A DNA stretch of 64,000 nucleotides from Candidatus Magasanikiibacteriota bacterium (GTDB taxonomy: Bacteria > Patescibacteriota > Patescibacteriia > Magasanikbacterales > GWA2-37-8). The position numbers were made by a program, and so were the translations under genes. A model generated the notes under the pieces. The model did not search any database, had not been told where the DNA came from, and saw only the letters and a program-made list of their open reading frames with translations. The stretch is taken from positions 108,279 to 172,278 of the forward strand of contig JAGOQR010000003.1 in the NCBI GenBank assembly GCA_017991415.1, given 5' to 3'. Below are positions 11,733 through 55,196 of the stretch, in pieces (within the stretch, counting starts at the first letter, position 1; every line of letters begins with the position of its first letter).

Positions 11733-11740
11733 ATTTATTT

Positions 11741-27235: not shown

Positions 27236-27239
27236 ATTT

Positions 27240-28692: not shown

Positions 28693-28842
28693 ATAGGTTT
28701 AATTGTAGTCTGGAATTAGGAAAATATCAACCCAAGGCATATTGATTGCCAAAAGATTTTTTTTTAGATAGAATGCAGCCATCGCCCCCATAGTTTCCGC
28801 CCAAGGCGGATCAGCCTCGGGCTGACAACGGATTCAAAATAA

Positions 28843-33692: not shown

Positions 33693-34325
33693 ATGCGTAC
33701 CGTTGGTTTGTTTGTAATTATTTCTCTCTTTTTTTCTCTTGGTTTTCCATCTGTTTCTTTGGGTGTTATGTCATCAACAAACTATACAATCTTTGCCGAC
33801 AGTATTGATTCTGGCGGTGGGCTTAGCGTGGGAGGCGTTTATAGCTTAGAAGACACTATTGGCGAATCTGCAGTTGGGTCGATAGTAAGTAGTACCTATG
33901 AAATTTTAGGGGGGTATCAGGCAATGGACTGGAGTGTTTTGCAGATAGAAATTGATACTAATTCGATTGATTTAGGGAGCTTGACGACTGCGCAAGTGGC
34001 TAGTTCGTCGGCACTTGTCTCTGTTACTGCTAATGCTGCTAGCGGGTATGTCTTGTCGGTGGGTAGTGTCGGAGGAAGTAGCTTGGCGCCAGTAAGTGAC
34101 GGTGCGGTAACTGCTGGCCAGGAAGAGTATGGTGTAGCAGTCAGTAGCGCTGATGCAGTATTTAATGACGATAGAGAGATAATAGCCGGGTTAAATTTAT
34201 CCGTGTCTAGTACCGCCGTAGTTGCAGCGCCAAGTAGTCTTGTTTTTAAAGCTGCAATTTCTGCTGGTACTGCTGCAGGTGTAAGAAGTCAATCTATTAT
34301 TTTGGCTGCTTCCACTAACATTTAA
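33693..34325 (+). CDS. Secreted Ser/Gly/Val-rich hypothetical protein.
   Basis: Signal peptide. No recognisable catalytic motif. First gene of the surface-protein cluster. Confidence 0.4.
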   Translation: MRTVGLFVIISLFFSLGFPSVSLGVMSSTNYTIFADSIDSGGGLSVGGVYSLEDTIGESAVGSIVSSTYEILGGYQAMDWSVLQIEIDTNSIDLGSLTTAQVASSSALVSVTANAASGYVLSVGSVGGSSLAPVSDGAVTAGQEEYGVAVSSADAVFNDDREIIAGLNLSVSSTAVVAAPSSLVFKAAISAGTAAGVRSQSIILAASTNI

Positions 34326-34331
34326 TTGACT

Positions 34332-35195
34332 ATGAAAATAAAGTTTTTTGTTCTTGTCGTGGTTGCAGTTTTATTTGCAGGTGTTTTACCAGTAAGAGCT
34401 TTTGAAATTTCGCCAATTAAAATGCTTATTACTGCAGATCCAGGTACAAATCAAACTGTGGTTTTAAAAATAAAAAATTCAGAAAAAAATGATGCAGTAT
34501 TTTTGCTCAACGTGTTTGGTGTTAGTCAAAATAATTCTGGAACACCTCTTTTTGAGAGGGGTGTTAGTCCTGCTGAGTCCTGGGTTTATCCCGAAGATAA
34601 TAAAGCTACGATAAAAAAAGGAGAGACTAGGTCAGTTAATTTTATAATTAAAGTTCCAGCAGATGCTACTCCAGGCTCTTACTACTTAGGGCTATCGGCC
34701 GAGCCTCAGACTGATAAACAGAGTGCGAGCAGCCTAAGTTCGAGATTAGTCTCTTTGCTCACTGTCCAGGTAAGCGGTGTTGTGCAAGAGTCTGTTTTGA
34801 TTGAAAAATGGGAAAAGACTGCTGGCTCTGAAGACGGTAAAAAATGGAAATTTAACCTCAATCTAAAAAATAACGGTTCGGTAGAGGTGCCAATGCGTGG
34901 TTTAGTCACATTTAAAAATTTTAAAGGTGATGCAGTTTTTGCTGAAACAATAGCTTTGGGGAATAAATTGCTAGCTGGATCACGACGAGTTATTGTGTCA
35001 GAAATTAGTGTTGACAATAGGATTATGATACCAGGTTTGTATCAAGCTCACATTGCTTTAAATTATGGAAAAACTAATCAACAAGTATCGGCCACGACTT
35101 ATATTTGGTATTTTCCAGTATGGAGTAAGGTAGCTGCGGGATTTTTAGCGTTGATAGTAGTAGGATTTTTGTTTATGAAACTAAGGAAAAAATAA
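34332..35195 (+). CDS. Cell-surface protein with N-terminal signal peptide and C-terminal TM anchor plus basic tail (architecture like DUF916/DUF3324 surface proteins).
   Basis: MKIKFFVLVVVAVLFAGVLPVRA signal. C-terminal VAAGFLALIVVGFLFMKLRKK. The ATG at 34332 is preferred over the track's TTG at 34326. Confidence 0.45.
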   Translation: MKIKFFVLVVVAVLFAGVLPVRAFEISPIKMLITADPGTNQTVVLKIKNSEKNDAVFLLNVFGVSQNNSGTPLFERGVSPAESWVYPEDNKATIKKGETRSVNFIIKVPADATPGSYYLGLSAEPQTDKQSASSLSSRLVSLLTVQVSGVVQESVLIEKWEKTAGSEDGKKWKFNLNLKNNGSVEVPMRGLVTFKNFKGDAVFAETIALGNKLLAGSRRVIVSEISVDNRIMIPGLYQAHIALNYGKTNQQVSATTYIWYFPVWSKVAAGFLALIVVGFLFMKLRKK

Positions 35196-35340
35196 ACTGA
35201 TTATTTTGTAAGCTATTTTTAAAATTTTTTTATAATTGCCAGCAAGGCAATTATTTTTTTACTTATCCACATCTGCCGCAAGTCGTTATATATAAAATAA
35301 GGCAAAAAAAGAGTATACTATGTATATATAAAGAAGGAGC

Positions 35341-38300
35341 TTGAAGCCCGAAAAAATTCAAGCTTGTTTATTGGCAAGACAGCTTATGGATGAGTCCAAA
35401 AGGAAGCAAAAAAAAGCCTTACCGCAAGCTGGAGGGCGAAAAAAACTTCCCATTTTTTTAATATTTGGGTTAATTTTGTTTTTTGCATTTGCAAGCTTTT
35501 TTTCAAAAAAAGTTTTTGCTGCTAATTCCCCTGCAATTATTACTTATCAAGGAAAGCTTTTAACTAATAATAGTTTAGCAACGACTACACAAAGCATGTA
35601 TTTTGTTTTATACGATGCCGCTAGTGCTGGAAGCGTTTTGTATACGGCAAGTGGCACAACCGGTGTTCCTTTGTCAATTAGCGTCACTCCTTCTCAAGGT
35701 TTATTCAGTGTTAATTTAGGGGATACGGGTACAAATTCTTTGGATCAATCAATTTTTCAAAATAATAGCTCGGTTTATTTGGAAGTACGAATTGGCTCTG
35801 ATACTCTTTCTCCAAGAAAAAGAATTACCTCTGTACCGTACGCTTTCAATGCAAGGTATTTAGATGGCGTGGCAGTCAGTGCTGTTTCTAGCTCTACTTA
35901 TATACCAAGATCAGATAGTAATGGTAATTTTACTTTTAACAGTACAACAATTAGTACTTCTACTATTACAGCTCTTAGTGTGCTAGGTACAACTTCTTTG
36001 TCTGTAATTAGTTCAGGAACATGGAATGGTTCAGTTATTTCTCCTATATATGGAGGCATTGGCCAAAATTCTTCTGGTTGGTCTGGACTTATACGAGTAA
36101 CTGCTGGAGTTTGGGCAACGAGCAGTGTCAGTTTGGCAACGGATGTTTCCGGTATTCTTTCTATTGCTCGTGGTGGCACAAATTCCTCAACACTCGCTGC
36201 TAATGGCTCTGTTATATATTCTGATGGTGCTGGATACAATGCTACTGCGGTTGGAGTTTCTGGCCAGGTTTTGCAGTCTACTGGTAGTGGTGCTCCAGTT
36301 TGGGTGGCAACAAGTTCTTTAGGGATAAGTGGTAATAGTTATTCCAGCTGGACACTTGCAACTTCAACGGATGACATTGGGTATTCCGTTACTTCTGGAG
36401 TAAAAGTAGTGTTTTCTGGGATCGATGGTATTACCACTACAAGATCTGGAGCTACTCTTAGCGTGGGTCTTACAAGTAGTGGTGTAAATGCTGGAACGTA
36501 TGGTTCTGCAAGCACAATACCTGTTTTAACAATTGATGCTTTTGGTCGAGTTATTGGCAATGCAAGTACTACAATTGCTATTGCTGGAAGTCAAATTACC
36601 TCAGGTACGGTTTCTTCTACTTTTGGTGGTACAGGACAAGATTCTTCTGCTTGGACAGGTTTAATAAGAGTTACGAGCGGTATTTGGTCAACTTCAACAG
36701 TTCTTTTAGCATCAGATGTAACTGGTGTTCTTTCTATTGCCAACGGTGGTACAAACTCCTCAACCTTAGCTGCCAATGGCTCTTTAATTTATTCTGATGG
36801 TACTAGATATAATGCGGTAGCTGTAGGAAATTCTGGTTATGTTCTTCAATCAACAGGCAGTGGTGCTCCAGTATGGGTGGCAACAAGTTCCTTAGGAATA
36901 GGTGGAAATAGTTATGCAAGTTGGACACTTGCAACCTCAACCGATGATATTGGCTACTCAGTTACCTCTGGAGTAAAAGTAGTATTTTCTGGAATTAATG
37001 GTGTTACGACTACGAGATCTGGGGCTACCCTTAGTGTCGGTCTTACAAATAGTGGTGTAAATGCTGGAACCTACGGTTCTTCAAGCGCTGTTGCAATTCT
37101 TACAATTGATTCTTTTGGTCGTATTATTTCTAATGCTACTAGCAGTATTGCTATTGCTGGAAATCAAATTACTTCGGGGGTTGTATCTCCTACGTTTGGT
37201 GGTATAGGGCAAGATTCTTCTGCATGGACCGGTCTTATTCGTGTTACCGCCGGTACTTGGTCAACCACTACAGTATCTCTCACTACCGATGTAAATGGGG
37301 TTTTATCGATTGCCAACGGCGGTACAAACTCCTCAACCTTAGCTGCCAACGGCTCTTTGATTTATTCTGATGGTACTAGATATAATGCGGTAGCTGTAGG
37401 AAATTCTGGTTATGTTCTTCAGTCTACTGGTAGTGGTGCTCCAGTTTGGGTGGCAACAAGTTCGCTTGGGTTTGTAAATTTACAAGGTTCCTCACCCGGA
37501 ACTCAGCAAATAGGTAGTTTTAACCTTTCTGGTACGGGTATTATAGGAACTTCTTTTGGTGTGGGTACTTCAACGGTATCTTCAACTTTAGTTGTTCAGG
37601 CGCTCACAGGTGTAAATCCATTAAGAGTGGTTTCTTCAAGTGGCTCCAACTTATTTGTTATTAGAGCAAATGGCACTGCAGGTATAAATGTTGATTCTCC
37701 ACAAGCAAAATTTGATGTTCGAGATCTGACACCTACGTCTACTGGTGCAATTTTTCAAATTGCTAATGCTCCAGGAACAATACCATATATGCTTGTTTCT
37801 TCTACTGCTACCTCAATTAGAGGTGCTTCAGGAACGGTTAATTTTGAGTTAGGTGTTACGACCGATAACCTAAATCAGGTTCTTATTCATGGCGATAATG
37901 CTTCGCTCTCAAGCGATGCTACAAAAGCTTTGGTGGTAAATGGTAGAGGAAATTTATATTTCCAATCTGGAAATGCGAATAGAATGCTAATCAAATCATC
38001 TGGTCTTATAGGTATAAATACAACTACTCAACAAGCACTCCTTACTGTTCAAGGTAGAATAAATGAAGATCCGTTTGTTATTGCATCTTCCAGTGGTCCT
38101 AATTTATTTAGAGTTCGGTCAAATGGTAATGTTGGTATTGGCACAAGTAGTCCCACACAAAAATTATCAGTTGTGGGTAATATTTCAAATATTACAGAAC
38201 AAAATACAAGTATAAGTGAAATTGTAACAACCTCTGTAGGTTCAGTGCCTCAAGATATTTTTGTATCTGGTAAGTATGCGTATGTAGCAAATTATGCTGA

Positions 38301-41300
38301 TGATACCTTGTCTGTTGTTGATGTATCTAATCCGTTAAATCCTCAGTTAATCTCTAATGCAACGCTCAATTCTGGTGCCAACCCTCATTCTGTATTTGTA
38401 TCTGGTAGGTATGCGTATACGGCAAATCAAAGTCAAGATACTTTATCTATTATTGATATTTCTAATCCAGCGGCTCCTGTTCAGGTGTCAACTGTTGTAG
38501 CTGGGTCTGGTCCTATTTCAGCTGTAGTATCCGGCAAGTATGCATATATAGGGAGCCTTGGAAATGCAATCTATGTAATAGATATTTCGGATCCTTTGTC
38601 AGCAACTAGGGTGGCTACTTCTTCTGTAGAGACGGGTGCGGGTCCTCGTTCTTTATATGTTTCAGGAAGGTATTTGTATGCAGGGAATTATTTAAATTCC
38701 ACAATCGGCATAACGGACATTTCTAATCCGTTAAATCCGGTTCTAGTCGGGACTACAACTGTTGGAAGTAATCCATCATCAATTTATGTTTCTGGTCGCT
38801 ATGCCTATTTGGCCAACTCAGGATCAGGGAGTGTTTCAGTTGTAGATGTTTCTAATGCAGCCGCTCCAAATACAGTTGCAACCATTTCTGTCACTGGTGC
38901 CTATGCTCTTCATGGGTCTGGAAGATACTTATATGTTACAAATTATTCTGACAGTCAAGTGGTTGTGGTTGATATTATTAACCCCTTATCTCCTGTTATT
39001 GTAAATACAGTGTCGCTTTCAGGCGTCAATCCAGCATCGATTTTTGTTTCTGGCCGGTATGCATATACGGTAAATGAGAGTAGTGCAAATATTTCTATTA
39101 TCGATATTTCTGGCACAGAAGTCACTAGTCTCATTGCTCACTCTGCAGAAGTAGGCAATATCCAATCAAGAAATGATATTTTTGCCCAAGGAAATATTAT
39201 GGCAGGAACGTCATTATCAGTAGGAGCTGGAGGCATTATGTCACAAGGAGCACTTTCTGTTTTTGCTTCTTCAACTGGTTCGACATCTACTATATTTAAT
39301 ATTAGCTCTGCGCAAGTTAAAGATATTTTTAGAGTATTTGCTAACGGTACGGTGTTATTTGCTGGTAGCGCCTCTTCTTCTATATTTAATGTTGATGGGA
39401 GGTTAGGAATAAATTCAACATCTCCAGTTGCTACGCTTGGAATAAAAGGTGCAGCAGGGGTTAATTTATTAGAAATTACTTCTTCCACTGGTGCGTCACT
39501 CGTTTCTATTCTTACAAACGGAAATGTTGGTATTGGTACAAGTTCACCTTCTCAAAAGTTATCAGTAGAAGGTAATATAGCCAATCTGATTGGGTCAAAC
39601 ACTGCTTTATCTATGGTTTCTTCAAGTATAGTAGGTACCAATCCTGTCTCTGTCTTTGTGTCTGGCCGCTATGCATATACGGCAAACTCTGGGTCAGATA
39701 ATATCTCTATTATTGATGTTTCCAATCCTTCAGCTCCAGTTCAAATTTCTACAACGAGTGTTGGCGGGGCATTTTCCTACCCAATTTCAATTTCTGTTTC
39801 AGGTCAGTATGCATATACGGCAAATTATAGTTTAAATACTATCTCTGTTGTTGATATTTCTAATCCTTTTAGGCCAGTCCAAGTAGCTACTGCTAGTGTG
39901 GGCGGCAACCCTTCGTCTATCTATATATCAGGTCGGTATGCCTATGTAAGTAATTATGCTTCTAATACAGTATCGATTGTTGATATTTCTAATCCTCGTA
40001 GTCCAACTCAAATTTCTACAGTTACAGTAGGGACAAATCCGTACTCTGTTTTTGTTTCTGGTCGCTATGCCTATGCAGCTAATTTTACCTCAAACAACAT
40101 TTCTGTAGTTGATATTTCTAACCCCTCCGCTCCAGTCCAAGTCGGCACTACAGTTGTAGGTGGTGGTCCATATTCTGTGTATGTTTCTGGTCGCTATGCC
40201 TATACAGCTAACACCAATTCAAATACTATTTCTGTAGTTGATATTTCTAACCCCTCCGCTCCAGTCCAAGTTGCTACCACATCGGTTGGGGTTCAGCCTT
40301 ATTCGGTGTTTGTATCTGGTCGATATTTATATGCAGCAAATAGAATTTCTGAAACTATTTCTGTAGTTGATATTTCTAACCCCTCCGCTCCAGTCCAAGT
40401 TGCTACCACATCGGTTGGGGTAAGTTCTGCGCCAAATGCACTGTATATTTCTGGTCGCTATGCCTATACGGCTAATTATGGAACAGATAGAATTGCTATT
40501 TTTGATATCTCTGGTACGGAAGTTTCAAGTCTTATGGCTCACTCTGCAGAAGTAGGCAATATCCAATCAAGAAATGATATTTTTGCCCAAGGAAATATTA
40601 TGGCAGGAACATCGCTGCTAGTAGGTAGTGGTGGAATAATGTCCCAAGGAGCGTTGTCAATTTTTGCTTCGTCAACTGGTGCTACTTCTTCTATATTTAA
40701 TATAGCTTCTTCTGCCTCCTCGAGCATATTAAAAGTATTTGCTAACGGTCGTATTGGTATTAATTCTTCTTCGCCATATGCCAACCTTTCTGTAAACGGT
40801 GATCTGGCAGTAACAGGAGGTATCTATGATAGTGCTGGTAGTCGTGGTATTAATGGGCAGGTTTTGCAGACAAACGGTACAGTTATAACATGGGTTTCTA
40901 CATCTTCTTTAGGATTGGGTGGTAATAGCGTTGGTAGTGGTACTACGGGTCAGTTTGGGTATTATTCAGCTACAGGTACTACCTTAACAGCAACTTCGAG
41001 CTTATTTTTAGCTGAATCTGGCAATATTGGTATTAATACCACCACCCCATTAGCCAGGTTGAGTGTGGTTGGTTTTGGTGCAGGATCGGTATTTGATGTG
41101 GCTTCCTCTACAGGCGCAAGCTTTTTCCGTATTTTGGCTAATGGCAATATAGGGATTAATTCTTCAAGTCCTGTTGCTAGTTTAGGAATTAGAACTGCTA
41201 CAGGCACCAATCCTTTCTTAATAACATCGTCAACAACTGGTGCAACTCTCGTATCCGTTTTAACAAATGGTAACGTTGGTATTGGAACAAGTACTCCAGC

Positions 41301-44300: not shown

Positions 44301-45852
44301 TTTACTTACGGGCGCAATTCAAGACATCGATTCTCGGTTGACTACCTACGCATCTTCTACAGCGTTAATTGTTTCTGCTTTAAGTATTAGTAGTGATAAT
44401 AACACTATTACATTTGGTTCATCTTCAAATCCATATAATCTTATCGTTACTGGCAATATTTCTTTAAATAATTCTAATGTAATCAATACATTATCTTTTG
44501 CAACAACCACTTTGTTTGAATCAAGTGTCGGCAGTTTTGCTGGAGCAAGGGCCTTTACCTTTAATGCTATAAATTTCAATGGTCCATTGGCAGATAATTA
44601 TATAATATCTTTGCGAGCAAATAATAACTCGGTATTCTCGGTGGCAGCTAATGGCGATGTGCATGCATCTGGAAATTATTATGGAGCAAGTGCAGTCTTG
44701 GGCACTTCTACAAACCCAGGTGATTTAGCAGAGCGTGTAGATATTGCTATAGATGATGTGGTAGAAGCGGGAGATGTTGTAGTAGTTGATCAAAATTCAC
44801 CTGATACGTATCGTCGTAGTACAGTGGCTTATGAACAGTCTGTTGCTGGTGTTATTTCGACTAACCCAACAATTGTGGTTGGTAATGGGCGCACGGATTA
44901 TACTGCGGTAATGGCAATGGTGGGCAGAGTACCAGTAAAAGTTTCGGCTGAAAATGGAAGCATCGCTCGAGGTGATTTGCTTGTAGCAGGGTCTCAACCT
45001 GGCTATGCTATGAAGTATGATGCTACTCGAGATGATAACAATAAGATGGTAGGAGTAATTGGTATCGCTTTAGAATCACTACCGACTTCGAGTGGTAAGA
45101 TTTTGGCTTTAATCCGCACGGGTTGGGTCTATAATAGAGATAAGGATATCTCGAGTCTTCAAAATAACATTGAACAATTAGCTGTTGCTCAAGGCATTAA
45201 TCTTGACCCGTCAGAAGAACCAGGCAACCTTAGTATTCAAAACAATAACAATCAGCTGGTATATGCAGGTGGTAATTTAGATCTTCAAAATAATTCCATA
45301 ATTAATATTGCTGGCATCTTTGGTAAAAATAATAAATGGAAAATTGATGAGTTTGGTAATCTGATCCAAAAGATTACGACCGTTGCTGGCGATAAAGAAA
45401 TTTATGGTCTACAGAGTAGTGGCAAACAAGAGCTAGTAATTTCTGGTACAAGCACATTGGAAAATGGTTCTAGACGAGTTGTCTTAACTGATTTAGATCA
45501 AGCAATTATCGACAAGACTGTACCGCTCAAGATTTCCATAACCATGTCTGGTGAAACTAAAGGATTCTATGTTTCTGAAAGAAGTTACGATAGTTTTGTA
45601 GTGAAAGAAAATGAAAACGGACAAAGTAATGCTCCGTTTGACTGGATAGTAATTGCCAAAGTTTTAGATCCAGAAAATATAGGTCAAAGCAGTCCTGTCG
45701 TAGAAGGGGAACAGCCGCCAGAAATAAATTCTTCCACTCCTGAATCTTCTCCTCAAGGAGAAGAACCTACAATTATTATTCCTGCAGAAGAGGTCTCTTC
45801 TTCTACCGAAAATGTTTCAAGTTCCGTAGATGTCTCAAGTTCCACGCCATAA
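35341..45852 (+). CDS. Giant (about 3500 aa) membrane-anchored fibre/adhesin-like protein. It has an N-terminal signal/anchor, three tandem repeats of about 190 aa resembling tail-fibre repeats, four super-repeats each forming a 7-blade LVIVD-type propeller plus a conserved AHSAEVGN(I/L)QSRNDIFAQGNI linker, an internal peptidase-S74-like autoproteolytic intramolecular-chaperone domain, and a C-terminal domain of about 480 aa with an acidic Ser-rich tail.
   Basis: Uninterrupted 10.5-kb ORF. 28 repeats of SGRYAYxxN....(I/L)S(V/I)(V/I)D(I/V)SNP counted directly. The linker occurs four times. S74-like motif SSARFKENIQSL...LRAVSFDFK...GFIAEEVAQIDPMLV...AIQDIDSRL. The start may be the ATG at 35386, because the TTG at 35341 sits 1 nt after the SD. 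Confidence 0.75.
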   Translation: MKPEKIQACLLARQLMDESKRKQKKALPQAGGRKKLPIFLIFGLILFFAFASFFSKKVFAANSPAIITYQGKLLTNNSLATTTQSMYFVLYDAASAGSVLYTASGTTGVPLSISVTPSQGLFSVNLGDTGTNSLDQSIFQNNSSVYLEVRIGSDTLSPRKRITSVPYAFNARYLDGVAVSAVSSSTYIPRSDSNGNFTFNSTTISTSTITALSVLGTTSLSVISSGTWNGSVISPIYGGIGQNSSGWSGLIRVTAGVWATSSVSLATDVSGILSIARGGTNSSTLAANGSVIYSDGAGYNATAVGVSGQVLQSTGSGAPVWVATSSLGISGNSYSSWTLATSTDDIGYSVTSGVKVVFSGIDGITTTRSGATLSVGLTSSGVNAGTYGSASTIPVLTIDAFGRVIGNASTTIAIAGSQITSGTVSSTFGGTGQDSSAWTGLIRVTSGIWSTSTVLLASDVTGVLSIANGGTNSSTLAANGSLIYSDGTRYNAVAVGNSGYVLQSTGSGAPVWVATSSLGIGGNSYASWTLATSTDDIGYSVTSGVKVVFSGINGVTTTRSGATLSVGLTNSGVNAGTYGSSSAVAILTIDSFGRIISNATSSIAIAGNQITSGVVSPTFGGIGQDSSAWTGLIRVTAGTWSTTTVSLTTDVNGVLSIANGGTNSSTLAANGSLIYSDGTRYNAVAVGNSGYVLQSTGSGAPVWVATSSLGFVNLQGSSPGTQQIGSFNLSGTGIIGTSFGVGTSTVSSTLVVQALTGVNPLRVVSSSGSNLFVIRANGTAGINVDSPQAKFDVRDLTPTSTGAIFQIANAPGTIPYMLVSSTATSIRGASGTVNFELGVTTDNLNQVLIHGDNASLSSDATKALVVNGRGNLYFQSGNANRMLIKSSGLIGINTTTQQALLTVQGRINEDPFVIASSSGPNLFRVRSNGNVGIGTSSPTQKLSVVGNISNITEQNTSISEIVTTSVGSVPQDIFVSGKYAYVANYADDTLSVVDVSNPLNPQLISNATLNSGANPHSVFVSGRYAYTANQSQDTLSIIDISNPAAPVQVSTVVAGSGPISAVVSGKYAYIGSLGNAIYVIDISDPLSATRVATSSVETGAGPRSLYVSGRYLYAGNYLNSTIGITDISNPLNPVLVGTTTVGSNPSSIYVSGRYAYLANSGSGSVSVVDVSNAAAPNTVATISVTGAYALHGSGRYLYVTNYSDSQVVVVDIINPLSPVIVNTVSLSGVNPASIFVSGRYAYTVNESSANISIIDISGTEVTSLIAHSAEVGNIQSRNDIFAQGNIMAGTSLSVGAGGIMSQGALSVFASSTGSTSTIFNISSAQVKDIFRVFANGTVLFAGSASSSIFNVDGRLGINSTSPVATLGIKGAAGVNLLEITSSTGASLVSILTNGNVGIGTSSPSQKLSVEGNIANLIGSNTALSMVSSSIVGTNPVSVFVSGRYAYTANSGSDNISIIDVSNPSAPVQISTTSVGGAFSYPISISVSGQYAYTANYSLNTISVVDISNPFRPVQVATASVGGNPSSIYISGRYAYVSNYASNTVSIVDISNPRSPTQISTVTVGTNPYSVFVSGRYAYAANFTSNNISVVDISNPSAPVQVGTTVVGGGPYSVYVSGRYAYTANTNSNTISVVDISNPSAPVQVATTSVGVQPYSVFVSGRYLYAANRISETISVVDISNPSAPVQVATTSVGVSSAPNALYISGRYAYTANYGTDRIAIFDISGTEVSSLMAHSAEVGNIQSRNDIFAQGNIMAGTSLLVGSGGIMSQGALSIFASSTGATSSIFNIASSASSSILKVFANGRIGINSSSPYANLSVNGDLAVTGGIYDSAGSRGINGQVLQTNGTVITWVSTSSLGLGGNSVGSGTTGQFGYYSATGTTLTATSSLFLAESGNIGINTTTPLARLSVVGFGAGSVFDVASSTGASFFRILANGNIGINSSSPVASLGIRTATGTNPFLITSSTTGATLVSVLTNGNVGIGTSTPAQKLSVVGNISNVIDTDSPISVVSTTGVFGTSPYDIAVSGRFAYVAYSGGSMVILDIINPSAPVSLSTSTFTGSARGIYVAGQYAYVSNASSNTLHIYNVANPSAPVFIATTSVGTGPEAVYVSGRYAYVANLSAGSMSIVDVANPYSPRQISSVSSAGGRGVVVNGKYAYSGSLGSQTVNVIDVSNPSSPVVVGTVNIGVSPYDIAFSDGYIYTTNYVSASMSVVNVKNPTSPTLVTSTPISNNSQSIAVSGRYAYFAGAGKFTAVDISDPSRPLVIKGIVTAGNPVSVAVSGRYAYVANYSNNTVSIVDISGTEVSSLIAHSAEVGNLQSRNDIFAQGNIIAGTGLMVGAGGIMSQGTLSVFASSTGVTSSIFNISSVQNTNIFKAFANGTISIGTSTASSTLTIQGVAGSNPIFTVASSTGESLLKILANGNVGIGTSTPAQKLSVVGGVQNILDPSTTISEIATTSVGRTPRSVYVLGRYAYVTNETSSTISVVDISNPSVPVQISTTSVDAGPHGIYVSGRYAYVAGASNNSVAIVDISNSKSPIQVGSVSVPSVIRDIQVVGKYAYLNYDSGGIIVLDVSNPRAPALVVSTSFSGTNPNAIAVSGRYAYLAEDAARILVVDISNPAAPILVGSTTVGLSPQAIAVSGRYAYIANAGENTMSVVDISNPLAPVQVATTTVGSTPLSIAVSGRYAYVANALSSTISVIDIINPLAPRQLALVSVGTNILPADIFISGRYAYTANIASGTLSGTMSVIDLSGTEVSSLIAHSAEVGSIQSRNDIFAQGNIMAGTSLIVGSGGLMSQGALSIFASSTGATSSIFNIASAASSSIFRVLADGRIGINSSTPNYGLVVNNTVALPGIGAPAATGDIVCYATGDGKITHQATNCTVSSARFKENIQSLSPEDLLDKVNRLRAVSFDFKPGQIPDHGLNGGGKESSGFIAEEVAQIDPMLVIYTDTYSSEDLLFDQINYPGAILYKDGKTLIPQTVDYARISVLLTGAIQDIDSRLTTYASSTALIVSALSISSDNNTITFGSSSNPYNLIVTGNISLNNSNVINTLSFATTTLFESSVGSFAGARAFTFNAINFNGPLADNYIISLRANNNSVFSVAANGDVHASGNYYGASAVLGTSTNPGDLAERVDIAIDDVVEAGDVVVVDQNSPDTYRRSTVAYEQSVAGVISTNPTIVVGNGRTDYTAVMAMVGRVPVKVSAENGSIARGDLLVAGSQPGYAMKYDATRDDNNKMVGVIGIALESLPTSSGKILALIRTGWVYNRDKDISSLQNNIEQLAVAQGINLDPSEEPGNLSIQNNNNQLVYAGGNLDLQNNSIINIAGIFGKNNKWKIDEFGNLIQKITTVAGDKEIYGLQSSGKQELVISGTSTLENGSRRVVLTDLDQAIIDKTVPLKISITMSGETKGFYVSERSYDSFVVKENENGQSNAPFDWIVIAKVLDPENIGQSSPVVEGEQPPEINSSTPESSPQGEEPTIIIPAEEVSSSTENVSSSVDVSSSTP

Positions 45853-45953
45853 ATAATCTAAGGGTATTTATTGTTGATTGACGGAATTAAGGGGTGGTGG
45901 AAAAGATAAAGTCGATAAAAATTTTCGAAGTGCAAATTTGGCGCAAAGAAATA

Positions 45954-48900
45954 TGAATTTAAAATCAAGTAAATTAATTTTTTTGGCCAGTATTATCTCA
46001 TCTATTTTTTTGTGCTTTCAGGTTTATTATGCACACAATCAAAGCGTTCGTGCGGCGACTGCAAATGAAAATTTAACTGTTACTGTCACTGTGCCAGGTG
46101 ATACTGGCGGTAGTGGTGGAGGAAGTGATTTGCCGCCAAGTATTTTTAATGTCATAACTTCAACTTCTTTTGCAAGTGCAAGTATTAGCTGGAGCGCTAC
46201 TGATGACCGGGGTATCTCTTTGGTAACTTTTGTCTACGGAGACTCTGTAAATTATGGGAGTTCAGGGGTGGTAACTGGCAATTACCAAGTAGCTCTTTCA
46301 AGCCTGGTTACAGGTACTGTATATTATTACAAAATTTCTGTAGTTGATACTAGGTCTAATTTAGTTGAGTATACAGGTACATTGGTAATGCTTTCTTCTC
46401 CGGCGCCACCAATTGATACAACGCCTCCGGTGATAAGCAATATTCAAATTATTCCAGGAGTAACCACAACTACTATAAGATGGACGACAGATGAGCTGGC
46501 AGATAGCCAGGTCTCTTATGGACCAACCGCTGCGTACGGAAGTAATTATTTTGATTCATCTAGATCGTTAGTCCATAGTGTTTTATTATTTAATTTAACA
46601 CCAGGTACTCTGTATCATTTTCAAATAATTTCTACAGATAGTTCTAATAATAGCGCAGGAACAATAGATGCAACTTTTACTACGCTTACCGATACCATTC
46701 CACCCCCTGATGCATCTAATTTTATTTTAACGACCACAAGTAATTCGATTGTATTATCATGGGTAAACCCAACACTTGTTGGTACGCCAGATTTTGCAGA
46801 AGTAAGAGTAGTACGCAAAATAGATTCCGCGTCGACTAATCCTGCCGATGGTGTAGTAGTATATGCTGGTACACAAGAAAATTTTACTGATTCCAGTGTG
46901 CTGGTAAATATAAATTATTTCTATACAATTTTTTCTTTTGATACTTCGAATAACAGCAGTCCCGGTATTTTTAGGAGCGGCCGAATTACGCCCATTGTTC
47001 CTCCAGTAGAAATCTGCGGTAATTCAATCGATGATAACAGTAATGGTTATACTGATTGTGCCGACAGCGCTTGTAGCTCTCTGCCGTCTTGTACGGTTAC
47101 TCCGCCACCAACCACTACTCCTAGCCCAGAAATTTGTAATAATAGTATTGATGATAATAGTAATGGATTTGTAGACTGTGCTGATACAGCTTGTTCTGGC
47201 TTTGCAGGCTGTTCTGGTACCAGTGCCTTGGCTGCCTGCAACAACACTCTTGATGATGATGTAGATGGGGCTTTTGACTTCCCTAATGATATTGGCTGTG
47301 AAAGTGCTGTTGATAATGATGAATACAATCCGCCTGAACCAACAGTGCCTCCCTTTTTAAAACTTAATTTAAATGATCTTAGGTTTTTCTCAGGCAATCG
47401 TCTTATAAGGTTATATCCGGTCGGAGATGTGGTTGTTGGCTTATCTGGGGCAAATTTAACCTTGGTTTTGCCAAGAAGTGTTTTAGAAAGCGAACCAAGA
47501 AACATTATATTGCGAGTGGGTGGTACTGATATTCATCAATTTGTATATAATACGACGGATCAAGCATATTATGCTGATTTATCTTTTGGTTCCGTTGGAA
47601 TTTCACAAGCGTATTTGGAGATTGACTATGGTTCTTCTCAGAGTGACTCTGTTGGTTTTAAGATGGATAGTTTGTCGTGGGGACAGGTACAGGGAAGCGA
47701 TAATCAGGCTGTGGTTGCGGCCGAAATTATTCTGTACGGATCAAATAATGAGCAGTTCCCAATGGGTTTGTACGGCCAATTAAACCCAATGACAGCTGAT
47801 ATAAATGGTAATTATGGTTGGATAGTACCAAATGGAAATTATAAAATTTTTGTCCATAAAGAAGGCTTTTATGATCGGTCAATCAATTTTACCGTTTCGA
47901 ACAATGTCATTAATTCCAATATAAGTTTAATTTCCCAGCCACCAAAATTAATTTTAACAATCGATCCAAACGCATCGCTATCTGAAAACATTCAAAATGT
48001 TGCAGGTGCGTTAGCAGGTCAAACAAAAATATTATCTACCGTGGCTGTGCAAAAAATTCAGGATGCAGTAAGTGACCCTGAGGTAAAAAAAGTAAATGAG
48101 CGGGTGGTCGCACCAGCGGCTATCACTGTAGTGGTGGCAGGTGCTGCCCCGTTAATTTCTTGGCTGGATCTTCTGCCATTTTTAAGACTTCTGTTCTTGC
48201 AGCCGCTTATGCTGCTCGGTTGGAGGAAAAGAGAGAAATGGGGTTTGGTGTATAACTCATTAAATAAGTTGCCTGTTGACTTGGCCATGATTCGTTTAAT
48301 TAACGCCGAAACAAATCGGGTAGTACAATCAAAGGTGACAGATTCAAAAGGCCATTTTATTTTTATGGTTGGTCCTGGAAAGTATAAATTGGAGGTTCGT
48401 AAAAACAACTTTGTTTTTCCTTCAAAATTTTTGGCTGATTCTATTAGTGACGGCCAAAAAGCAGACATTTACCACGGAGAAATAATTGAAGTGTTAAGTC
48501 CATCGGGTATTACCGCTACGGTACCGCTTGATCCTGTTGAAGCGCATAAAAAACCAAGTCGATTAATTTGGGAAAAATTTGGCCGTCGGTTGCAAACAGT
48601 TTTATCGGTAGTTGGTATTTTAATTACTGCTTTTTCCCTTTACATATCTCCAAAATGGTACATAATAGCCCTGCTTATTGTGCATATTTTGGTCTTCTTC
48701 ATTTTCCAAAAATTAGCAAGACCACCAAAAATTAGGAATTGGGGTATCGTATATGACGATATGCAAAAAACACCTATTTCTCGGGTAGTGGCCAGGTTGT
48801 TTAATTCTCAGTTCAACAAGCTTGTTGATACTCAGGTTACTGATGGTAGTGGTAAATATTATTTTATGGCTGGGGACGCAAAATATTATGTTACCTATGA

Positions 48901-48997
48901 GCATAAAGAATATCATCCTCAAAAAACCGATATTATTAACTTGGAAGGTAAAGAGCCAGAGGCAATAACAGTGGAGGTTCGGTTGAAGAAAAACTAA
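45954..48997 (+). CDS. Large surface protein with signal peptide, fn3-like domains, three MopE-like Cys/Asp motifs (CxNSIDDNSNGxxDCADxxC) and a C-terminal tandem duplication of TM helix plus CarboxypepD_reg-like domain.
   Basis: ATG at 45954 gives the signal peptide MNLKSSKLIFLASIISSIFLCFQVYYAHNQSVRA. Repeated WG(L/I)VY...V(T)DxxGxYxF modules each preceded by a TM segment. Confidence 0.6.
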
Positions 48998-49104
48998 ATT
49001 TTTTGTATATAGCCTGATTGACAAGGCAAAATTTTTGTTTTACAATGTCCCGCAGTGAGTAAAAACCAGAGTACGTCGTAAGAGTAAATTATTTAATAAT
49101 TAAC

Positions 49105-49178
49105 GGGCCAATAGCTCAGCTGGCTAGAGCGCTTCCATGGCATGGAAGAGGTCCGGGGTTCAAATCCCCGTTGGTCCA
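49105..49178 (+). tRNA. tRNA-Ala (GGC).
   Basis: G3:U70 in the acceptor (GGGCCAA/TTGGTCC). Anticodon loop ATGGCAT. T-arm GGTTCAAATCC. Confidence 0.8.
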
Positions 49179-49185
49179 CAACCAT

Positions 49186-50265: not shown

Positions 50266-50278
50266 ATTAAATAAAAAA

Positions 50279-50309
50279 ATACACTGGACTAGTCCAGTGT
50301 ATTTTTTTA
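50279..50309. terminator. Bidirectional intrinsic terminator (ATACACTGGACT/AGTCCAGTGTAT hairpin, T-run on both strands).
   Basis: Perfect 12-bp inverted repeat between convergent ychF and the methyltransferase gene. Confidence 0.65.
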
Positions 50310-50313
50310 TACG

Positions 50314-51513: not shown

Positions 51514-51859
51514 AGGTGGAGGTAACTACGGGAGTAGTTGTATTAGTCTTGTAGAAAAAAATGTTTCGGATATCAGGGGCAAAGTACTCTAGTTTTTGTT
51601 TTTTTTCAATAGCCTCCGAAGCTTTGTGGAAAGCGGGTATATCTAAGTTGTAAATATTCACACTCGATTTGAGGGCTGTAATTACCGTAGTGTTGGCAAT
51701 GGTACTGTAGATATTTTGATAAATAAAGTAGTAGGTTAAGCCTACAGCAGAGAGTAAAACAAGAAATATTAAAAGATATACCATCCGCCAGAGGCCATAT
51801 CTACCCTTATATAGATTTTGTGGTTTGGTTTTATTCGCTAACATATAATTCGGTTGCAA
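51488..51859 (-). CDS. Small single-pass membrane protein in the pilus operon, PilP-like position.
   Basis: N-terminal TM. Overlaps the downstream gene by 26 nt. Confidence 0.3.
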   Translation of the reverse strand: MQPNYMLANKTKPQNLYKGRYGLWRMVYLLIFLVLLSAVGLTYYFIYQNIYSTIANTTVITALKSSVNIYNLDIPAFHKASEAIEKKQKLEYFAPDIRNIFFYKTNTTTPVVTSTYAASSTKR

Positions 51860-52373: not shown

Positions 52374-52379
52374 AGTAGT

Positions 52380-52910: not shown

Positions 52911-52941
52911 ATCTGATAAAGGGGCAGGTAAGTTAGGCCTA

Positions 52942-54051: not shown

Positions 54052-54053
54052 AT

Positions 54054-55160: not shown

Positions 55161-55196
55161 ATATAATAATCTAGTGAAAATTAAATTTCACTTTTT

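What the first reader, a model, noticed from the sequence alone, without database searches (positions are those of the whole stretch)
33693..48997. Surface-protein cluster centred on a 3503-aa fibre-like giant protein with 4 x 7 LVIVD-type blades and tail-fibre-like repeats
Four co-directional genes (secreted protein, signal-plus-anchor protein, giant protein, 1014-aa fn3/MopE-like protein) form a likely cell-envelope appendage or adhesin locus. The giant protein combines features normally seen separately. It has three nearly identical tandem modules of about 190 aa with tail-fibre-like GG(T/I)GQ...LSIANGGTNSSTLAANGS motifs. It has four super-repeats, each a 7-bladed LVIVD-like propeller ending in an invariant 30-aa linker, and a peptidase-S74-like self-cleaving chaperone domain. 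For a small-genome organism, 10.5 kb (about 16% of this window) devoted to one ORF, next to a type IV pilus operon, points to a host- or surface-attachment function.
Basis: partly seen in the sequence, partly recalled or inferred. Interest (0 to 1): 0.65.

Follow-up and report, generated by a model that had tools for sequence, protein, structure and literature searches.

The report
Self-chaperoning surface fibre locus, CPR bacterium
A tiny-genome Magasanikbacteria (CPR) bacterium encodes a 3,488-residue phage-tail-fibre-like surface protein with four seven-bladed propellers and two different self-cleaving folding domains, next to a conserved three-gene set that probably holds it on the cell; it is a good candidate for how these uncultured bacteria attach to hosts or surfaces.

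Summary
An ORF at 35341-45852 (probable start ATG 35386; GenBank MBP6859832.1, labelled 'lactonase family') carries 28 LVIVD blades as 4 x 7. Each propeller ends in a near-invariant 36-aa linker, and a Pfam-significant Peptidase_S74 domain follows the last one. The repeats have diverged at the DNA level (64-78%), so they are not a simple assembly concatenation.

Corrections:
- The '3 nearly identical' N-terminal modules are an (ab)(ab)(a) array of 2.5 copies at 72-88% identity. They have no Pfam or PHROG match.
- S74 is internal rather than C-terminal.
- S74 is followed by a family-wide module whose barrel resembles the phi29 gp12 (G2-type) autochaperone. The family's invariant G|DLAE aligns on gp12's S691|D692..E695.

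In 66 family proteins the slot upstream of this barrel is empty (32), a second or third G2-like barrel (30), or S74 (4).

The gene cluster is conserved across Candidatus Magasanikbacteria: 19 complete and 10 partial loci, in two gene orders. It contains a PamT-like secreted protein, a WxLIP/PapD-like two-Ig protein with a TM anchor, a polytopic fn3/CarboxypepD_reg membrane protein, and a fibre of 716-3,812 aa with 0-4 propellers.

Best reading: a trimeric adhesin fibre like the Bdellovibrio MAT fibres, docked by a Pam/WxL-like cassette. Trimerisation, cleavage, anchoring and adhesion are all inferred, not shown.

The parts
33693..34325 (+). 210-aa secreted protein, PamT-like (a Pam-pilin C-terminal, truncated-Ig type domain)
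   Evidence: It has an N-terminal signal peptide. It matches NCBIfam NF058579 CPR_pilus_PamT at E 1.8e-14 (53.8 bits, below the equivalog cutoff of 240) and NF058581 CPR_Pam_pilin_C at E 4.4e-5. Orthologues in L009 and L007 match too (2.1e-11 and 3.1e-8). It is conserved in 19 complete cassettes.
34326..35195 (+). 289-aa (287 from ATG 34332) signal peptide + two Ig-like domains + C-terminal TM helix; WxLIP / PapD-chaperone-like membrane-anchored protein
   Evidence: The AF2 model has pLDDT 87.6. Foldseek against the PDB gives E. faecium WxLIP 9I25_C/9I1Y at E 5e-13 (TM 0.50-0.55), RbmA at 2e-10, and the chaperone-usher chaperones CfaA, CsuC, EcpB, Caf1M and FimC at 1e-9 to 1e-7. Pfam WxLIP_PGBD is sub-threshold at E 5e-4 and is precomputed on many homologues. 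The TM helix spans aa 262-288 and is followed by KLRKK.
35232..35261 (+). Terminator-like hairpin plus T-run between the 289-aa gene and the giant gene
   Evidence: One search reports a 9-bp stem, ATAATTGCCAGCAAGGCAATTAT, followed by TTTTTTT. No such site lies between the giant gene and the 1039-aa gene.
35386..35523 (+). Giant protein: probable true start (ATG) and Sec signal peptide with a conserved AxA-type cleavage site (VFA|A)
   Evidence: The 3488-aa product from this ATG is identical to NCBI MBP6859832.1. The hydrophobic segment is at aa 33-61. AxA motifs precede the conserved 'PxIITYQG' in homologues.
35524..36021 (+). Conserved N-terminal domain of the fibre family (about 165 aa immediately after the signal peptide)
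   Evidence: It is shared with all complete family members. The exhaustive search with this domain plus module 1 found 3834 representative proteins at E<=1e-3 and 119 at <=1e-30; in most of the listed hits the N-domain match begins about residue 40-50. It has no Pfam match.
36022..37476 (+). Tandem 191-aa modules in an (ab)(ab)(a) arrangement: M1 36022-36594, M2 36595-37167, half-copy M3 37168-37476
   Evidence: Motif positions recur at exactly 191-aa spacing. Identities are given. Close relatives carry 0 to 3.5 copies, and those that have modules end in a lone 'a'. There is no Pfam or PHROG match.
37477..38202 (+). Stalk segment 0, with repeats carrying the (V/I)GI(G/N)xxxPxxxL motif
   Evidence: The same motif precedes the S74/ICA domain in MYRF (alignment) and is the 'capping loop' motif of the Bdellovibrio MAT fibres (PMC10769870).
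38203..39216 (+). Propeller 1 (7 LVIVD blades) plus 36-aa linker 1
39217..39597 (+). Stalk segment 1
39598..40617 (+). Propeller 2 (7 blades) plus linker 2
   Evidence: The best PDB sequence match is the 1L0Q archaeal S-layer YVTN propeller, E 6.7e-13.
40618..41349 (+). Stalk segment 2 (longest; 4 motif copies)
41350..42342 (+). Propeller 3 (7 blades) plus linker 3
42343..42675 (+). Stalk segment 3
42676..43695 (+). Propeller 4 (7 blades) plus linker 4
43696..43962 (+). Stalk segment 4 (pre-S74)
   Evidence: This stretch together with S74 matches annotated phage tail fibre proteins of Synechococcus phages S-B28 and S-CAM9.
43963..44370 (+). Internal Peptidase_S74 / intramolecular chaperone domain; cleavage-type motif S-S-A-R-F-K begins at nt 43984
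   Evidence: Pfam PF13884 scores 41.1 bits against a cutoff of 22. PHROG 1980 'tail fiber protein' matches at E 5e-11. The PDB hit is the MYRF ICA domain 7DC3, E 5.5e-4. Relatives with 54-73% identical S74 domains carry it at the extreme C-terminus.
44371..45675 (+). Family-wide C-terminal module. The G2-like (phi29 gp12-type) barrel is at nt 44632-45204, with the invariant G|DLAE at nt 44719; a helix and beta-sandwich domains follow.
   Evidence: The module is modelled at pLDDT 75-96. Foldseek against BFVD gives 'Preneck appendage protein barrel' at E 1e-11, TM 0.64-0.66. The only PDB hits of the barrel profile are gp12 entries 6QZ9 and 3GQH, and D/E align on gp12 D692/E695. Pfam Peptidase_G2 is sub-threshold in 4 of 11 members. 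The barrel is present in all 66 family proteins or fragments tallied.
45676..45852 (+). Low-complexity Ser/Pro/Glu-rich C-terminal tail and stop codon
   Evidence: Homologues have similar acidic, Pro-rich tails.
45878..48997 (+). 1039-codon ORF (1014 aa from ATG 45953): signal/anchor, fn3-like domains, acidic double-disulfide repeats, then a conserved C-terminal region of about 340 aa with TM helices and CarboxypepD_reg-like domains
   Evidence: Pfam hits are. NCBIfam NF033662 acid_disulf_rpt scores 49.3 bits against a cutoff of 41. TM segments lie at 742-774 and 905-949. Orthologues are 43-45% identical over the C-terminal part. In relatives this gene is always adjacent to the fibre gene, either before or after it.
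31389..33686 (+). 765-aa polytopic membrane + TPR protein ending 6 nt upstream of the cassette; possible accessory gene with uncertain membership
   Evidence: TPR hits are and a sub-threshold Wzy_C hit (E 0.0087). It occupies the same position in L009 and L001-L004.

Best explanation
The locus encodes a Sec-exported cell-surface fibre of a Candidatus Magasanikbacteria (CPR/Patescibacteria) bacterium, together with the proteins that probably hold it on the cell. The fibre is built like a phage tail fibre or tailspike.

Proposed mechanism (steps 1-4 are inferred from homology):
1. The signal peptide is removed at a conserved AxA site.
2. Three chains are brought into register from the C-terminus by two tandem intramolecular chaperones: an S74 domain (aa 2875-3010) and a phi29-gp12-like G2-type barrel (from aa 3127).
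3. These chaperones template a trimeric stalk made of (V/I)GI(G/N)xxxPxxxL repeats. The stalk carries four tiers of 7-bladed LVIVD/YVTN propellers, 12 per trimer, which act as ligand-binding heads. A strongly constrained 36-aa linker returns each propeller to the stalk.
4. The chaperones then self-cleave at the S-S-A-R-F-K site and/or at G|DLAE. Cleavage at the S74 site would release the last ~620 aa.
5. The conserved N-terminal domain is the cell-proximal end. It is docked non-covalently, probably by beta-strand complementation, to the cassette proteins: the PamT-like acceptor protein, the membrane-anchored WxLIP/PapD-like two-Ig protein, and the polytopic fn3/CarboxypepD_reg membrane protein.

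The likely function is attachment to a host cell or surface. Reach and avidity would be tuned by modular gain and loss of (ab) shaft modules (0-3.5) and propeller tiers (0-4) between species.

Shown here: domain content, repeat anatomy, selection on the linker, family distribution, synteny, fold similarities, and conserved cleavage-site residues. Inferred: trimerisation, cleavage, anchoring partners, polarity, and adhesion.
For: Domains and repeats.

S74: significant, with an intact S-x-x-x-x-K motif, and 54-73% identical to terminal S74 domains of other fibre-like proteins.

G2-like barrel: the fold match, the gp12-only PDB hits and D/E falling on gp12 D692/E695. Mature gp12* ends at residue 691 (PMC6542822). 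The gp12 and K1F C-terminal domains are cleaved autochaperones of trimeric spikes, and K1F combines propellers with a triple-beta-helix stalk (PMC3357383).

Slot statistics show S74 and a G2-like barrel are interchangeable at one position (alignment with P0161).

The family is restricted to Magasanikbacteria, with fibre lengths of 716-3812 aa and 0, 7, 14, 21 or 28 blades.

The cassette is conserved in 19 complete and 10 partial loci and stays adjacent despite two gene orders.

PamT-like matches appear in three orthologues. The WxLIP/chaperone fold comes with a TM anchor, matching how PamC/PamD are described. The same preprint notes that a 'tail fibre-like protein' co-localises with pam operons (bioRxiv 10.64898/2026.03.03.709456).

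In E. faecium, WxLIP binds a long WxL surface protein (PDB 9I25 title; PMC10599100).

Bdellovibrio MAT fibres share the plan of signal peptide, conserved N-domain, trimeric fibre, and S74 or non-S74 end, and they are surface adhesins (PMC10769870).
Against: - There is no experimental or expression data for any component.
- The S74 part of the monomer model was unconfident (pLDDT<50), and no multimer prediction was possible, so trimerisation and docking are untested.
- Peptidase_G2 and the PamT equivalog model are both below their curated cut-offs.
- A terminator-like hairpin separates the small genes from the giant gene.
- Six more distant loci with at least 4.5 kb of upstream flank lack a detectable cassette.
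- If S74 cleaves, the family's most conserved module is discarded, which makes its role and the fibre's polarity ambiguous.
- No ligand-binding function is established for LVIVD propellers.
- Copy numbers rest on one MAG contig, because the short-read assemblies break in the repeats.
Confidence: 0.6

Rival explanations
1. The giant protein is an S-layer or other structural envelope component rather than an adhesin. The propellers would tile the cell surface, as in archaeal YVTN/LVIVD S-layer proteins, and the cassette would anchor the layer.
For: The best PDB sequence relative is the Methanosarcina S-layer protein 1L0Q, E 6.7e-13. The 289-aa protein has faint hits to a 'putative S-layer protein' model. 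The protein has a signal peptide and a Ser/Thr-rich composition.
Against: Length and propeller number vary from 0 to 4 between close relatives, and some genomes carry tandem paralogues. That pattern is typical of receptor-binding fibres and unlike a lattice-forming protein. The phage-type intramolecular chaperones and stalk motifs point to a trimeric fibre. The PKD-type lattice domains of 1L0Q were not detected.
Confidence: 0.12
2. The adjacency is coincidental. The PamT-like, chaperone-like and membrane proteins would form an independent small Pam/WxL-type appendage, and the fibre would be anchored by other means, such as its own C-terminal module or tail.
For: A terminator-like hairpin lies between the 289-aa gene and the giant gene. 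Six distant family loci have no adjacent cassette. No shared domain between the small protein and the fibre was detectable by sequence.
Against: The genes remain adjacent in 29 loci even though the fibre and membrane-protein genes have swapped order. The cassette lacks any NTD-linker-CTD pilin that could build a filament of its own. Pam operons are likewise reported to co-localise with a tail-fibre-like gene.
Confidence: 0.15
3. The propellers are enzymes. The protein would be a cell-surface depolymerase or lactonase-type fibre that degrades host envelope polymers, as phage endosialidase does with its propeller.
For: GenBank calls it a 'beta-propeller fold lactonase family protein'. Pfam Lactonase matches at E 2.7e-31, and NCBIfam lists sub-threshold lactonase-type matches. 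In K1F endosialidase the propeller is part of the binding and catalytic domain (PMC3357383). The C-terminal model has local matches to tailspike depolymerases.
Against: Every enzyme-family match is far below its equivalog cut-off, for example L-NosZ at 148 bits against 700 and PRK11028 at 58 against 370. These matches reflect the repeat and fold. The above-threshold families are the LVIVD and YVTN repeats, which to my knowledge have no assigned catalytic activity.
Confidence: 0.08
4. The gene is a prophage, tailocin or phage-derived tail fibre gene, or the ORF is an assembly artefact of collapsed or concatenated repeats.
For: S74 and G2-like domains, PHROG 'tail fiber protein' and phage tail fibre hits. 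Short-read assemblies break in the repeats.
Against: No other phage gene was identified among the annotated neighbours. The chromosomal context (TPR protein ... YchF, type IV pilus operon) is conserved in L009/L032. The protein has a Sec signal peptide, which phage fibres lack. The family is vertically distributed in one CPR lineage. The repeats are 64-78% identical in DNA with mostly synonymous linker differences. Independent MAGs show 21-28 blades with 3-4 linkers.
Confidence: 0.04

Closest known systems
Bdellovibrio bacteriovorus MAT (mosaic adhesive trimer) fibres (PMC10769870)
   Same: Both are bacterial, Sec-exported, phage-like surface fibres. Both have a conserved beta-rich domain directly after the signal peptide and a long stalk with the VG..P...L capping-loop motif shared with MYRF. 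Family members end either in S74 (SDxxxK) or in a non-S74 domain, the parts are shuffled mosaically, and the partner of the N-domain is unknown.
   Different: The lineage is different (CPR, thought to have a single membrane). Up to four LVIVD propeller tiers are inserted in the shaft. S74 is internal and followed by a G2-like module. A conserved neighbouring cassette offers candidate docking proteins. Homology of the two N-terminal domains was not tested.
Phage K1F endosialidase (S74 founder) and phi29 gp12 pre-neck appendage (MEROPS G2) (PMC3357383, PMC6542822)
   Same: Both have a C-terminal intramolecular chaperone that is cleaved after trimer folding. K1F combines beta-propellers with a trimeric stalk. 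The family's G|DLAE aligns with gp12 S691|D692-F-A-E695.
   Different: This protein is cellular and has a signal peptide. The two chaperone types sit in one polypeptide. The propellers are 7-bladed LVIVD/YVTN and repeated four times. About 230 further conserved residues follow the barrel, whereas gp12 ends about 160 residues after its cleavage site.
CPR Pam pilus system (bioRxiv 10.64898/2026.03.03.709456)
   Same: Both are CPR-specific. The small secreted protein is homologous to PamT and the Pam pilin C-terminal domain. The partner is a PapD/FimC-like two-Ig protein with a C-terminal TM helix, as described for PamC/PamD. A tail-fibre-like gene lies nearby in both.
   Different: The cassette has no PamA/B/E-type pilins and no PamR. 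PamT similarity is far below the equivalog cut-off. The lineage, Magasanikbacteria, is not highlighted in that study. A polytopic membrane protein is part of the set.
Firmicute WxL clusters: WxL proteins plus WxLIP (DUF916-DUF3324-TM) (PMC10599100; PDB 9I25, 9I1Y)
   Same: The best structural match of the 289-aa protein is WxLIP. The logic of the cluster is the same: a small secreted protein, a TM-anchored two-Ig protein, and a large surface protein.
   Different: No WxL domain was detected in any cassette protein. The large protein is a self-chaperoning fibre, not a WxL-anchored adhesin.
MYRF (myelin regulatory factor) ICA domain
   Same: It has an internal S74-type domain, preceded by the same stalk motif, that separates an N-terminal trimer from a C-terminal part. 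It was the only PDB hit (at E<=1) of the giant's C-terminal region in a sequence search.
   Different: MYRF is a eukaryotic membrane-bound transcription factor, unrelated outside the ICA region.
Archaeal S-layer YVTN/LVIVD propeller proteins (PDB 1L0Q)
   Same: They have 7-bladed propellers of the same repeat family on a cell-surface protein.
   Different: They have no stalk repeats, intramolecular chaperones or cassette, and the PKD domains of 1L0Q are absent here.

Membership tests
LVIVD repeat / YVTN beta-propeller (PF08309, TIGR02276) | Repeat HMM above the curated cut-off | tested here: met
   PF08309 scores 438.4 bits against 20.2. TIGR02276 scores 111.5 bits against 27.85.
LVIVD repeat / YVTN beta-propeller (PF08309, TIGR02276) | Blades grouped into closed 7-bladed propellers | tested here: met
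   There are 28 cores in four groups of 7 at 41-46-aa spacing. The Lactonase 7-blade model covers positions 20-320 of 344. No 3-D model of a propeller was made.
Peptidase S74 / C-terminal intramolecular chaperone domain (PF13884) | Domain HMM above the curated cut-off | tested here: met
   41.1 bits against a cutoff of 22, covering profile positions 1-57 of 58.
Peptidase S74 / C-terminal intramolecular chaperone domain (PF13884) | Ser...Lys catalytic motif (SDxxxK type) | tested here: met
   V-S-S-A-R-F-K at aa 2880-2886. The motif definition is taken from PMC10769870.
Peptidase S74 / C-terminal intramolecular chaperone domain (PF13884) | Located at the extreme C-terminus and released as a small fragment | tested here: not met
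   About 490 residues follow the domain, whereas relatives P0032, P0035, P0040 and P0045 have it terminal. The precedent for an internal position is MYRF.
Peptidase S74 / C-terminal intramolecular chaperone domain (PF13884) | Trimerisation-dependent autoproteolysis | not testable with these tools
   This needs recombinant expression. The monomer model of this part had pLDDT<50.
Peptidase G2 / phi29 gp12 IMC autoproteolytic domain (PF11962) | Domain HMM above the curated cut-off | tested here: not met
   The window sequence scores 14.2 bits against a cutoff of 25. Four of 11 family members match, best E 0.0023.
Peptidase G2 / phi29 gp12 IMC autoproteolytic domain (PF11962) | Asp at the new N-terminus and Glu at +3 (gp12 D692, E695) | tested here: met
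   The family profile aligns the invariant G-D-L-A-E on gp12 S691-D692-F-A-E695, and gp12 entries are the only PDB hits. Mature gp12* ends at residue 691 (PMC6542822). That these two residues are catalytic is from memory of Xiang et al. 2009, which could not be read.
Peptidase G2 / phi29 gp12 IMC autoproteolytic domain (PF11962) | Barrel fold of the gp12 autochaperone | tested here: inconclusive
CPR Pam pilus system | PamT equivalog score | tested here: not met
   53.8 bits against a cutoff of 240. The match is still significant (E 1.8e-14), and three orthologues match. This indicates a homologue, not an equivalog.
CPR Pam pilus system | Major pilins with NTD-linker-CTD (PamA/B/E) in the operon | tested here: not met
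   No Pam pilin match was found in the other cassette proteins. Only the cassette was scanned, not the whole window.
CPR Pam pilus system | PapD/FimC-like chaperone with a C-terminal TM helix | tested here: met
   the description of PamC/PamD is. No sequence comparison with PamC or PamD themselves was possible.
WxL cluster (Firmicutes) | WxLIP: DUF916 + DUF3324 Ig-like pair plus a TM helix | tested here: met
   The fold match to 9I25_C/9I1Y has E 5e-13. Pfam WxLIP_PGBD is sub-threshold at 20.5 bits against 27.3.
WxL cluster (Firmicutes) | WxL-domain proteins (small and long) in the cluster | tested here: not met
   No WxL family hit was found in any of the four proteins.
Bdellovibrio MAT fibre superfamily | Signal peptide followed by a conserved beta-rich N-domain; stalk with capping-loop motif; S74 or alternative terminus | tested here: met
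   The architecture is seen. There are 10 motif copies. This is a match of architecture only.
Bdellovibrio MAT fibre superfamily | Homology of the N-terminal domain to the MAT N-domain; trimeric state | not tested
Chaperone-usher pili | Outer-membrane usher | tested here: not met
   No usher family hit was found. The large membrane protein has alpha-helical TM segments with fn3/CarboxypepD_reg domains.

The most novel reading that the evidence does not exclude
Magasanikbacteria have an undescribed surface-appendage system. In it, a donor-strand-type docking set (a PamT-like acceptor, a TM-anchored PapD/WxLIP-like protein and a polytopic membrane platform) holds a phage-type trimeric fibre by its conserved N-terminal domain. 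Two evolutionarily unrelated self-cleaving chaperones (S74 and G2-like) are interchangeable cassettes at one slot of the fibre. The internal S74 would act as in MYRF, cutting the 2,880-residue propeller fibre free of its C-terminal module as a maturation or release step.
Probability: 0.3. Interest if true: 0.78.

Novelty: new variant of a known kind. Interest (0 to 1): 0.62.

Why it matters
Most CPR/Patescibacteria are thought to live attached to other microbes. Outside Saccharibacteria (type IV pili, Pam pili), the molecules that make contact are essentially unknown.

This locus gives a concrete, lineage-wide candidate for Magasanikbacteria. It is a modular fibre whose shaft modules and propeller tiers expand and contract between species, and it comes with candidate docking proteins. 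That combination addresses a question left open for the analogous Bdellovibrio MAT fibres: what binds the conserved N-terminal domain.

The S74/G2-like swap and the tandem arrangement would also be a natural experiment on whether the two phage autochaperone families are functionally equivalent.

On the practical side, the GenBank label 'lactonase family protein' is misleading for this whole family.

Tried and rejected
- A full-length homologue search with the repetitive 3488-aa query timed out. I used the C-terminal 650 aa instead.
- Self-BLAST of the whole protein returned only the self-hit, so I compared chunks.
It was redone with 14 sequences.
- The profile of full-length homologues against the PDB was dominated by propeller hits. 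It was redone with trimmed barrels.
- Xiang et al. 2009 (PMC2692858) is not held. The catalytic role of gp12 D692/E695 is therefore from memory, and only the cleavage position is supported by a held paper.
- An exact-protein contig look-up for the giant found nothing on record. The cluster look-up did find it.
- I tested whether the fibre or the 1039-aa protein shares a domain with the PamT-like protein, as long and short WxL proteins do. No similarity was found.
- PHROGs gave nothing for the N-terminal 938 aa or for the three neighbours.
- Pfam at E<=1 gave nothing credible for the N-domain, the modules or the stalk segments.
- The names of multi-module relatives were uninformative.
- Rejected readings: prophage origin, assembly concatenation, and a functional link to the type IV pilus operon based on adjacency alone.

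Full report

Yes. Four co-directional ORFs occupy 33693-48997. The central ORF has 3503 codons from a TTG at 35341. Read from the ATG at 35386 it gives a 3488-aa product that is 100% identical to a database protein, NCBI MBP6859832.1. That record is labelled 'beta-propeller fold lactonase family protein' and comes from a Candidatus Magasanikbacteria MAG on a 183.6-kb contig.

Pfam reports LVIVD at 438 bits in 21 stretches, the 7-bladed Lactonase propeller at E 2.7e-31, and Peptidase_S74 at 41.1 bits against a cutoff of 22. I located 28 blade cores (SGRYAY-type) in four groups of seven. Each group is followed by the near-invariant 36-aa peptide SGTEV.SL.AHSAEVG..QSRNDIFAQGNI.AGT.

The repeats are old. 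Propellers are 45-59% identical in protein and 64-68% in DNA, and the N-terminal modules are 69-78% identical in DNA. The four linkers differ by 7-15 synonymous but only 2-4 non-synonymous codon changes per pair. That pattern indicates purifying selection rather than recent copying or an assembler artefact.

Six independent short-read assemblies from public runs match the window at 99.2-100%. All of them terminate between 35795 and 36816, at or just inside the first two N-terminal modules. The exact copy numbers therefore rest on one MAG contig. However, independent relatives show the same design with 3 or 4 propeller tiers.

**2. Corrections to the description**

- The N-terminal array has an exact 191-aa period but consists of two full copies and a half copy, (ab)(ab)(a). 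First halves are 72-88% identical, and the M1-M2 second halves are 82% identical.
- Close relatives carry 0, 0.5, 1.5 or 3.5 copies, and those that have modules end with a lone 'a'. The half copy is therefore a genuine feature.
- These modules and the preceding N-terminal domain have no Pfam or PHROG match. They gave one weak hit in 50,697 phage records. Calling them 'tail-fibre-like' is unproven.
- The segments between propellers do have a phage-fibre signature. They hold ten copies of (V/I)GI(G/N)xxxPxxxL. This motif precedes the S74/ICA domain in MYRF and is the capping-loop motif of the Bdellovibrio MAT fibres (PMC10769870).
- The downstream 1014-aa protein has fn3-like domains and above-threshold 'acidic double-disulfide' repeats. 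It also has a conserved C-terminal part with TM helices and CarboxypepD_reg-like domains.

**3. The C-terminal end is the surprise**

In relatives that share only the S74 region (54-73% identity, with the same ...QATNCTVSSARFKENI...), S74 sits at the extreme C-terminus, as in phage fibres. In the giant protein it is internal, and about 490 residues follow it. In a PDB sequence search with the last 718 residues (from linker 4 onward), the only hit was MYRF, the known case of an internal self-cleaving S74-type domain.

The residues after S74 form the most conserved part of a family of Patescibacteria proteins. An AF2 model of this module is confident, with pLDDT 75-96. Its barrel matches predicted phage 'preneck appendage protein barrel' structures at E about 1e-11 and TM 0.65.

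A profile of 11 trimmed barrels hits only phi29 gp12 in the PDB. The E-values are weak (0.018 and 0.087), but the alignment is exact at the key site: the family-invariant G-D-L-A-E lies on gp12 S691-D692-F-A-E695. Mature gp12* ends at residue 691 (PMC6542822). The gp12 and K1F C-terminal domains are autochaperones that are cleaved off after trimer folding (PMC3357383). Pfam Peptidase_G2 stays below its threshold, so I call the module 'G2-like' and do not file it as a member.

Across 66 family proteins or fragments, the terminal barrel is always present, and it carries DLAE wherever that part of the barrel is included. The slot upstream of it is empty in 32, holds a second G2-like barrel with DxxE in 29 (and two extra barrels in one more), and holds S74 in 4, including this window. 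In the 3308-aa close relative P0161, a G2-like barrel occupies exactly the position of the window's S74. Two unrelated chaperone types thus appear to be interchangeable cassettes.

**4. The family and its neighbourhood**

A scan of species-representative genomes found 56 loci. Those with informative titles are almost all Candidatus Magasanikbacteria or unclassified Patescibacteria. About half carry the title 'uncultured Gammaproteobacteria bacterium' although they hold the same Magasanikbacteria-type locus. The best match is 84% identical.

Fibre genes range from 716 to 3812 aa and carry 0, 7, 14, 21 or 28 blades. The three neighbouring genes travel with the fibre. There are 19 complete cassettes, and 10 more are cut by contig or locus ends. 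In most loci the order is small-anchor-membrane-fibre. In the window's closest clade it is small-anchor-fibre-membrane. Six of the most distant loci lack a detectable cassette despite adequate flank.

The 210-aa secreted protein and its orthologues significantly match the NCBIfam models for PamT and the Pam pilin C-terminal domain, at E 1.8e-14, 2.1e-11 and 3.1e-8. All are far below the equivalog cutoff.

The 287-aa protein models confidently (pLDDT 87.6) as two Ig-like domains plus a C-terminal TM helix. Its best structural matches are E. faecium WxLIP (including the entry bound to a long WxL protein), then RbmA, then chaperone-usher chaperones. This is how the Pam preprint describes PamC/PamD. 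That preprint also notes that a 'tail fibre-like protein' co-localises with pam operons. The cassette lacks Pam-type major pilins, PamR, WxL domains and an usher. It is a relative of these systems, not a member of any of them.

**5. Transcription and context**

A terminator-like hairpin (35232-35254 plus a T-run) separates the small genes from the giant gene. None separates the giant gene from the 1014-aa gene. There may therefore be two transcription units, or the site may be a partial terminator that sets stoichiometry.

The type IV pilus genes lie at 51488-56930 on the other strand, beyond tRNA-Ala, YchF and a methyltransferase. The arrangement recurs in L009 but not in L007. I give it no functional weight.

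**6. Interpretation**

The best-supported model, at confidence about 0.6, has five parts:
- It is a Sec-exported, homotrimeric surface fibre like the Bdellovibrio MAT fibres.
- Tandem C-terminal autochaperones nucleate its folding and then self-cleave.
- The shaft carries four tiers of LVIVD propellers as binding heads.
- The conserved N-terminal domain is docked to the PamT-like, WxLIP-like and membrane-protein cassette.
- Module and propeller copy number is the evolutionary variable.

Domain content, conservation, synteny and fold matches are shown here. Trimerisation, cleavage, polarity, docking and adhesion are inferred from the named families.

The main unexplained point is why the most conserved module lies downstream of a cleavage-competent S74 site. 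Either it is discarded along with S74, or it stays associated, or the C-terminus is the anchored end and S74 cleavage releases the fibre, as in MYRF.

Four rivals are less likely: an S-layer component, an independent small appendage with coincidental adjacency, an enzymatic propeller fibre, and a prophage gene or assembly artefact. The reasons are given under each.

**7. Novelty**

Every individual domain type is known, and S74-tipped bacterial fibres have been described in Bdellovibrio. Four things appear to be undescribed:
- the Magasanikbacteria family itself;
- the multi-tier LVIVD propeller shaft;
- the tandem, swappable S74 and G2-like chaperone slot;
- the conserved Pam/WxLIP-like cassette next to the fibre.

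My literature searches found nothing on LVIVD or S74 fibres in CPR beyond the one-line remark in the Pam preprint. I rate this a new variant of a known kind, with interest about 0.6.

Noticed in passing
window 31389-33686 (+): A 765-aa protein with about 12 TM segments, a sub-threshold Wzy_C/O-antigen-ligase-like match (E 0.0087) and C-terminal TPRs ends 6 nt before the cassette. It is syntenic in L009 and L001-L004. It could be a glycosylation or assembly factor for the Ser/Thr-rich fibre or for pilins.
   Followed up: partly
window 30754-31119 (-): A free-standing 121-aa LAGLIDADG_1 homing-endonuclease-like ORF (Pfam precomputed on the identical gene in L001-L004) sits between protein-coding genes, not inside an rRNA or an obvious intron.
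   Followed up: no
window 49105-49179 (+), 49018-49046: tRNA-Ala(GGC) lies just after the 1039-codon ORF, preceded by the best promoter-like site of the region (11/12). The mechanical YchF ORF start (TTG 49171) overlaps the tRNA, so the true YchF start must be further downstream.
   Followed up: no
window 35337-35385: A small inverted repeat (AGCTTGAA...TTCAAGCT) spans the TTG at 35341, just upstream of the probable ATG start at 35386. Gene callers disagree on the start: 3503 aa (P0304) against 3488 aa (P0162). It may be a 5'-UTR structure.
   Followed up: no
window 50271-50310: A strong 18-bp-stem bidirectional terminator-like palindrome lies between convergent YchF and the methyltransferase gene.
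   Followed up: no
L012 (661-3426 / 3437-11941), L017 (1539-5159 / 5054-11416), L060 (5682-7589 / 7580-11524): In several relatives the fibre gene is split into two adjacent or overlapping ORFs. These could be frameshifts from assembly errors in the repeats, pseudogenes or phase variation.
   Followed up: no
L040 (5222-11485 and 11595-18264), L028, L062, L029/L042, L041/L043: Some Magasanikbacteria genomes carry two fibre paralogues in tandem or within about 14 kb, with different middles. In two genomes one paralogue has S74. This suggests a repertoire of fibres per cell.
   Followed up: partly
L012-L015, L017-L019 and about 20 other loci (record titles): Many TPA MAG records holding this Magasanikbacteria-type locus are titled 'uncultured Gammaproteobacteria bacterium', and one is titled 'Candidatus Udaeobacter sp.'. 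These are probably batch mislabelling or mis-binning in the public records.
   Followed up: no
L002/L003 versus window 26600-28800: Strains from other samples are 99% identical across the cassette but only 95-98% identical, with different gene content, a few kb upstream: a PadR gene plus a 536-aa gene replace the window's arrangement. This indicates a local strain-variable island.
   Followed up: no
P0165, P0168, P0262, P0270, P0302/P0307: The 191-aa module, or parts of it, occurs in 12-36 matched stretches in other uncharacterised giant proteins. Some are from Bacteroidota/Kapabacteria MAGs, so it is a widespread, unannotated repeat domain.
   Followed up: partly
window 28958-29299 and 27619-28692: TfoX_N- and RmuC-family genes (precomputed Pfam on identical genes in L001) lie near the type IV pilus operon. 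This is consistent with a competence or DNA-uptake role for that pilus rather than a link to the fibre.
   Followed up: no
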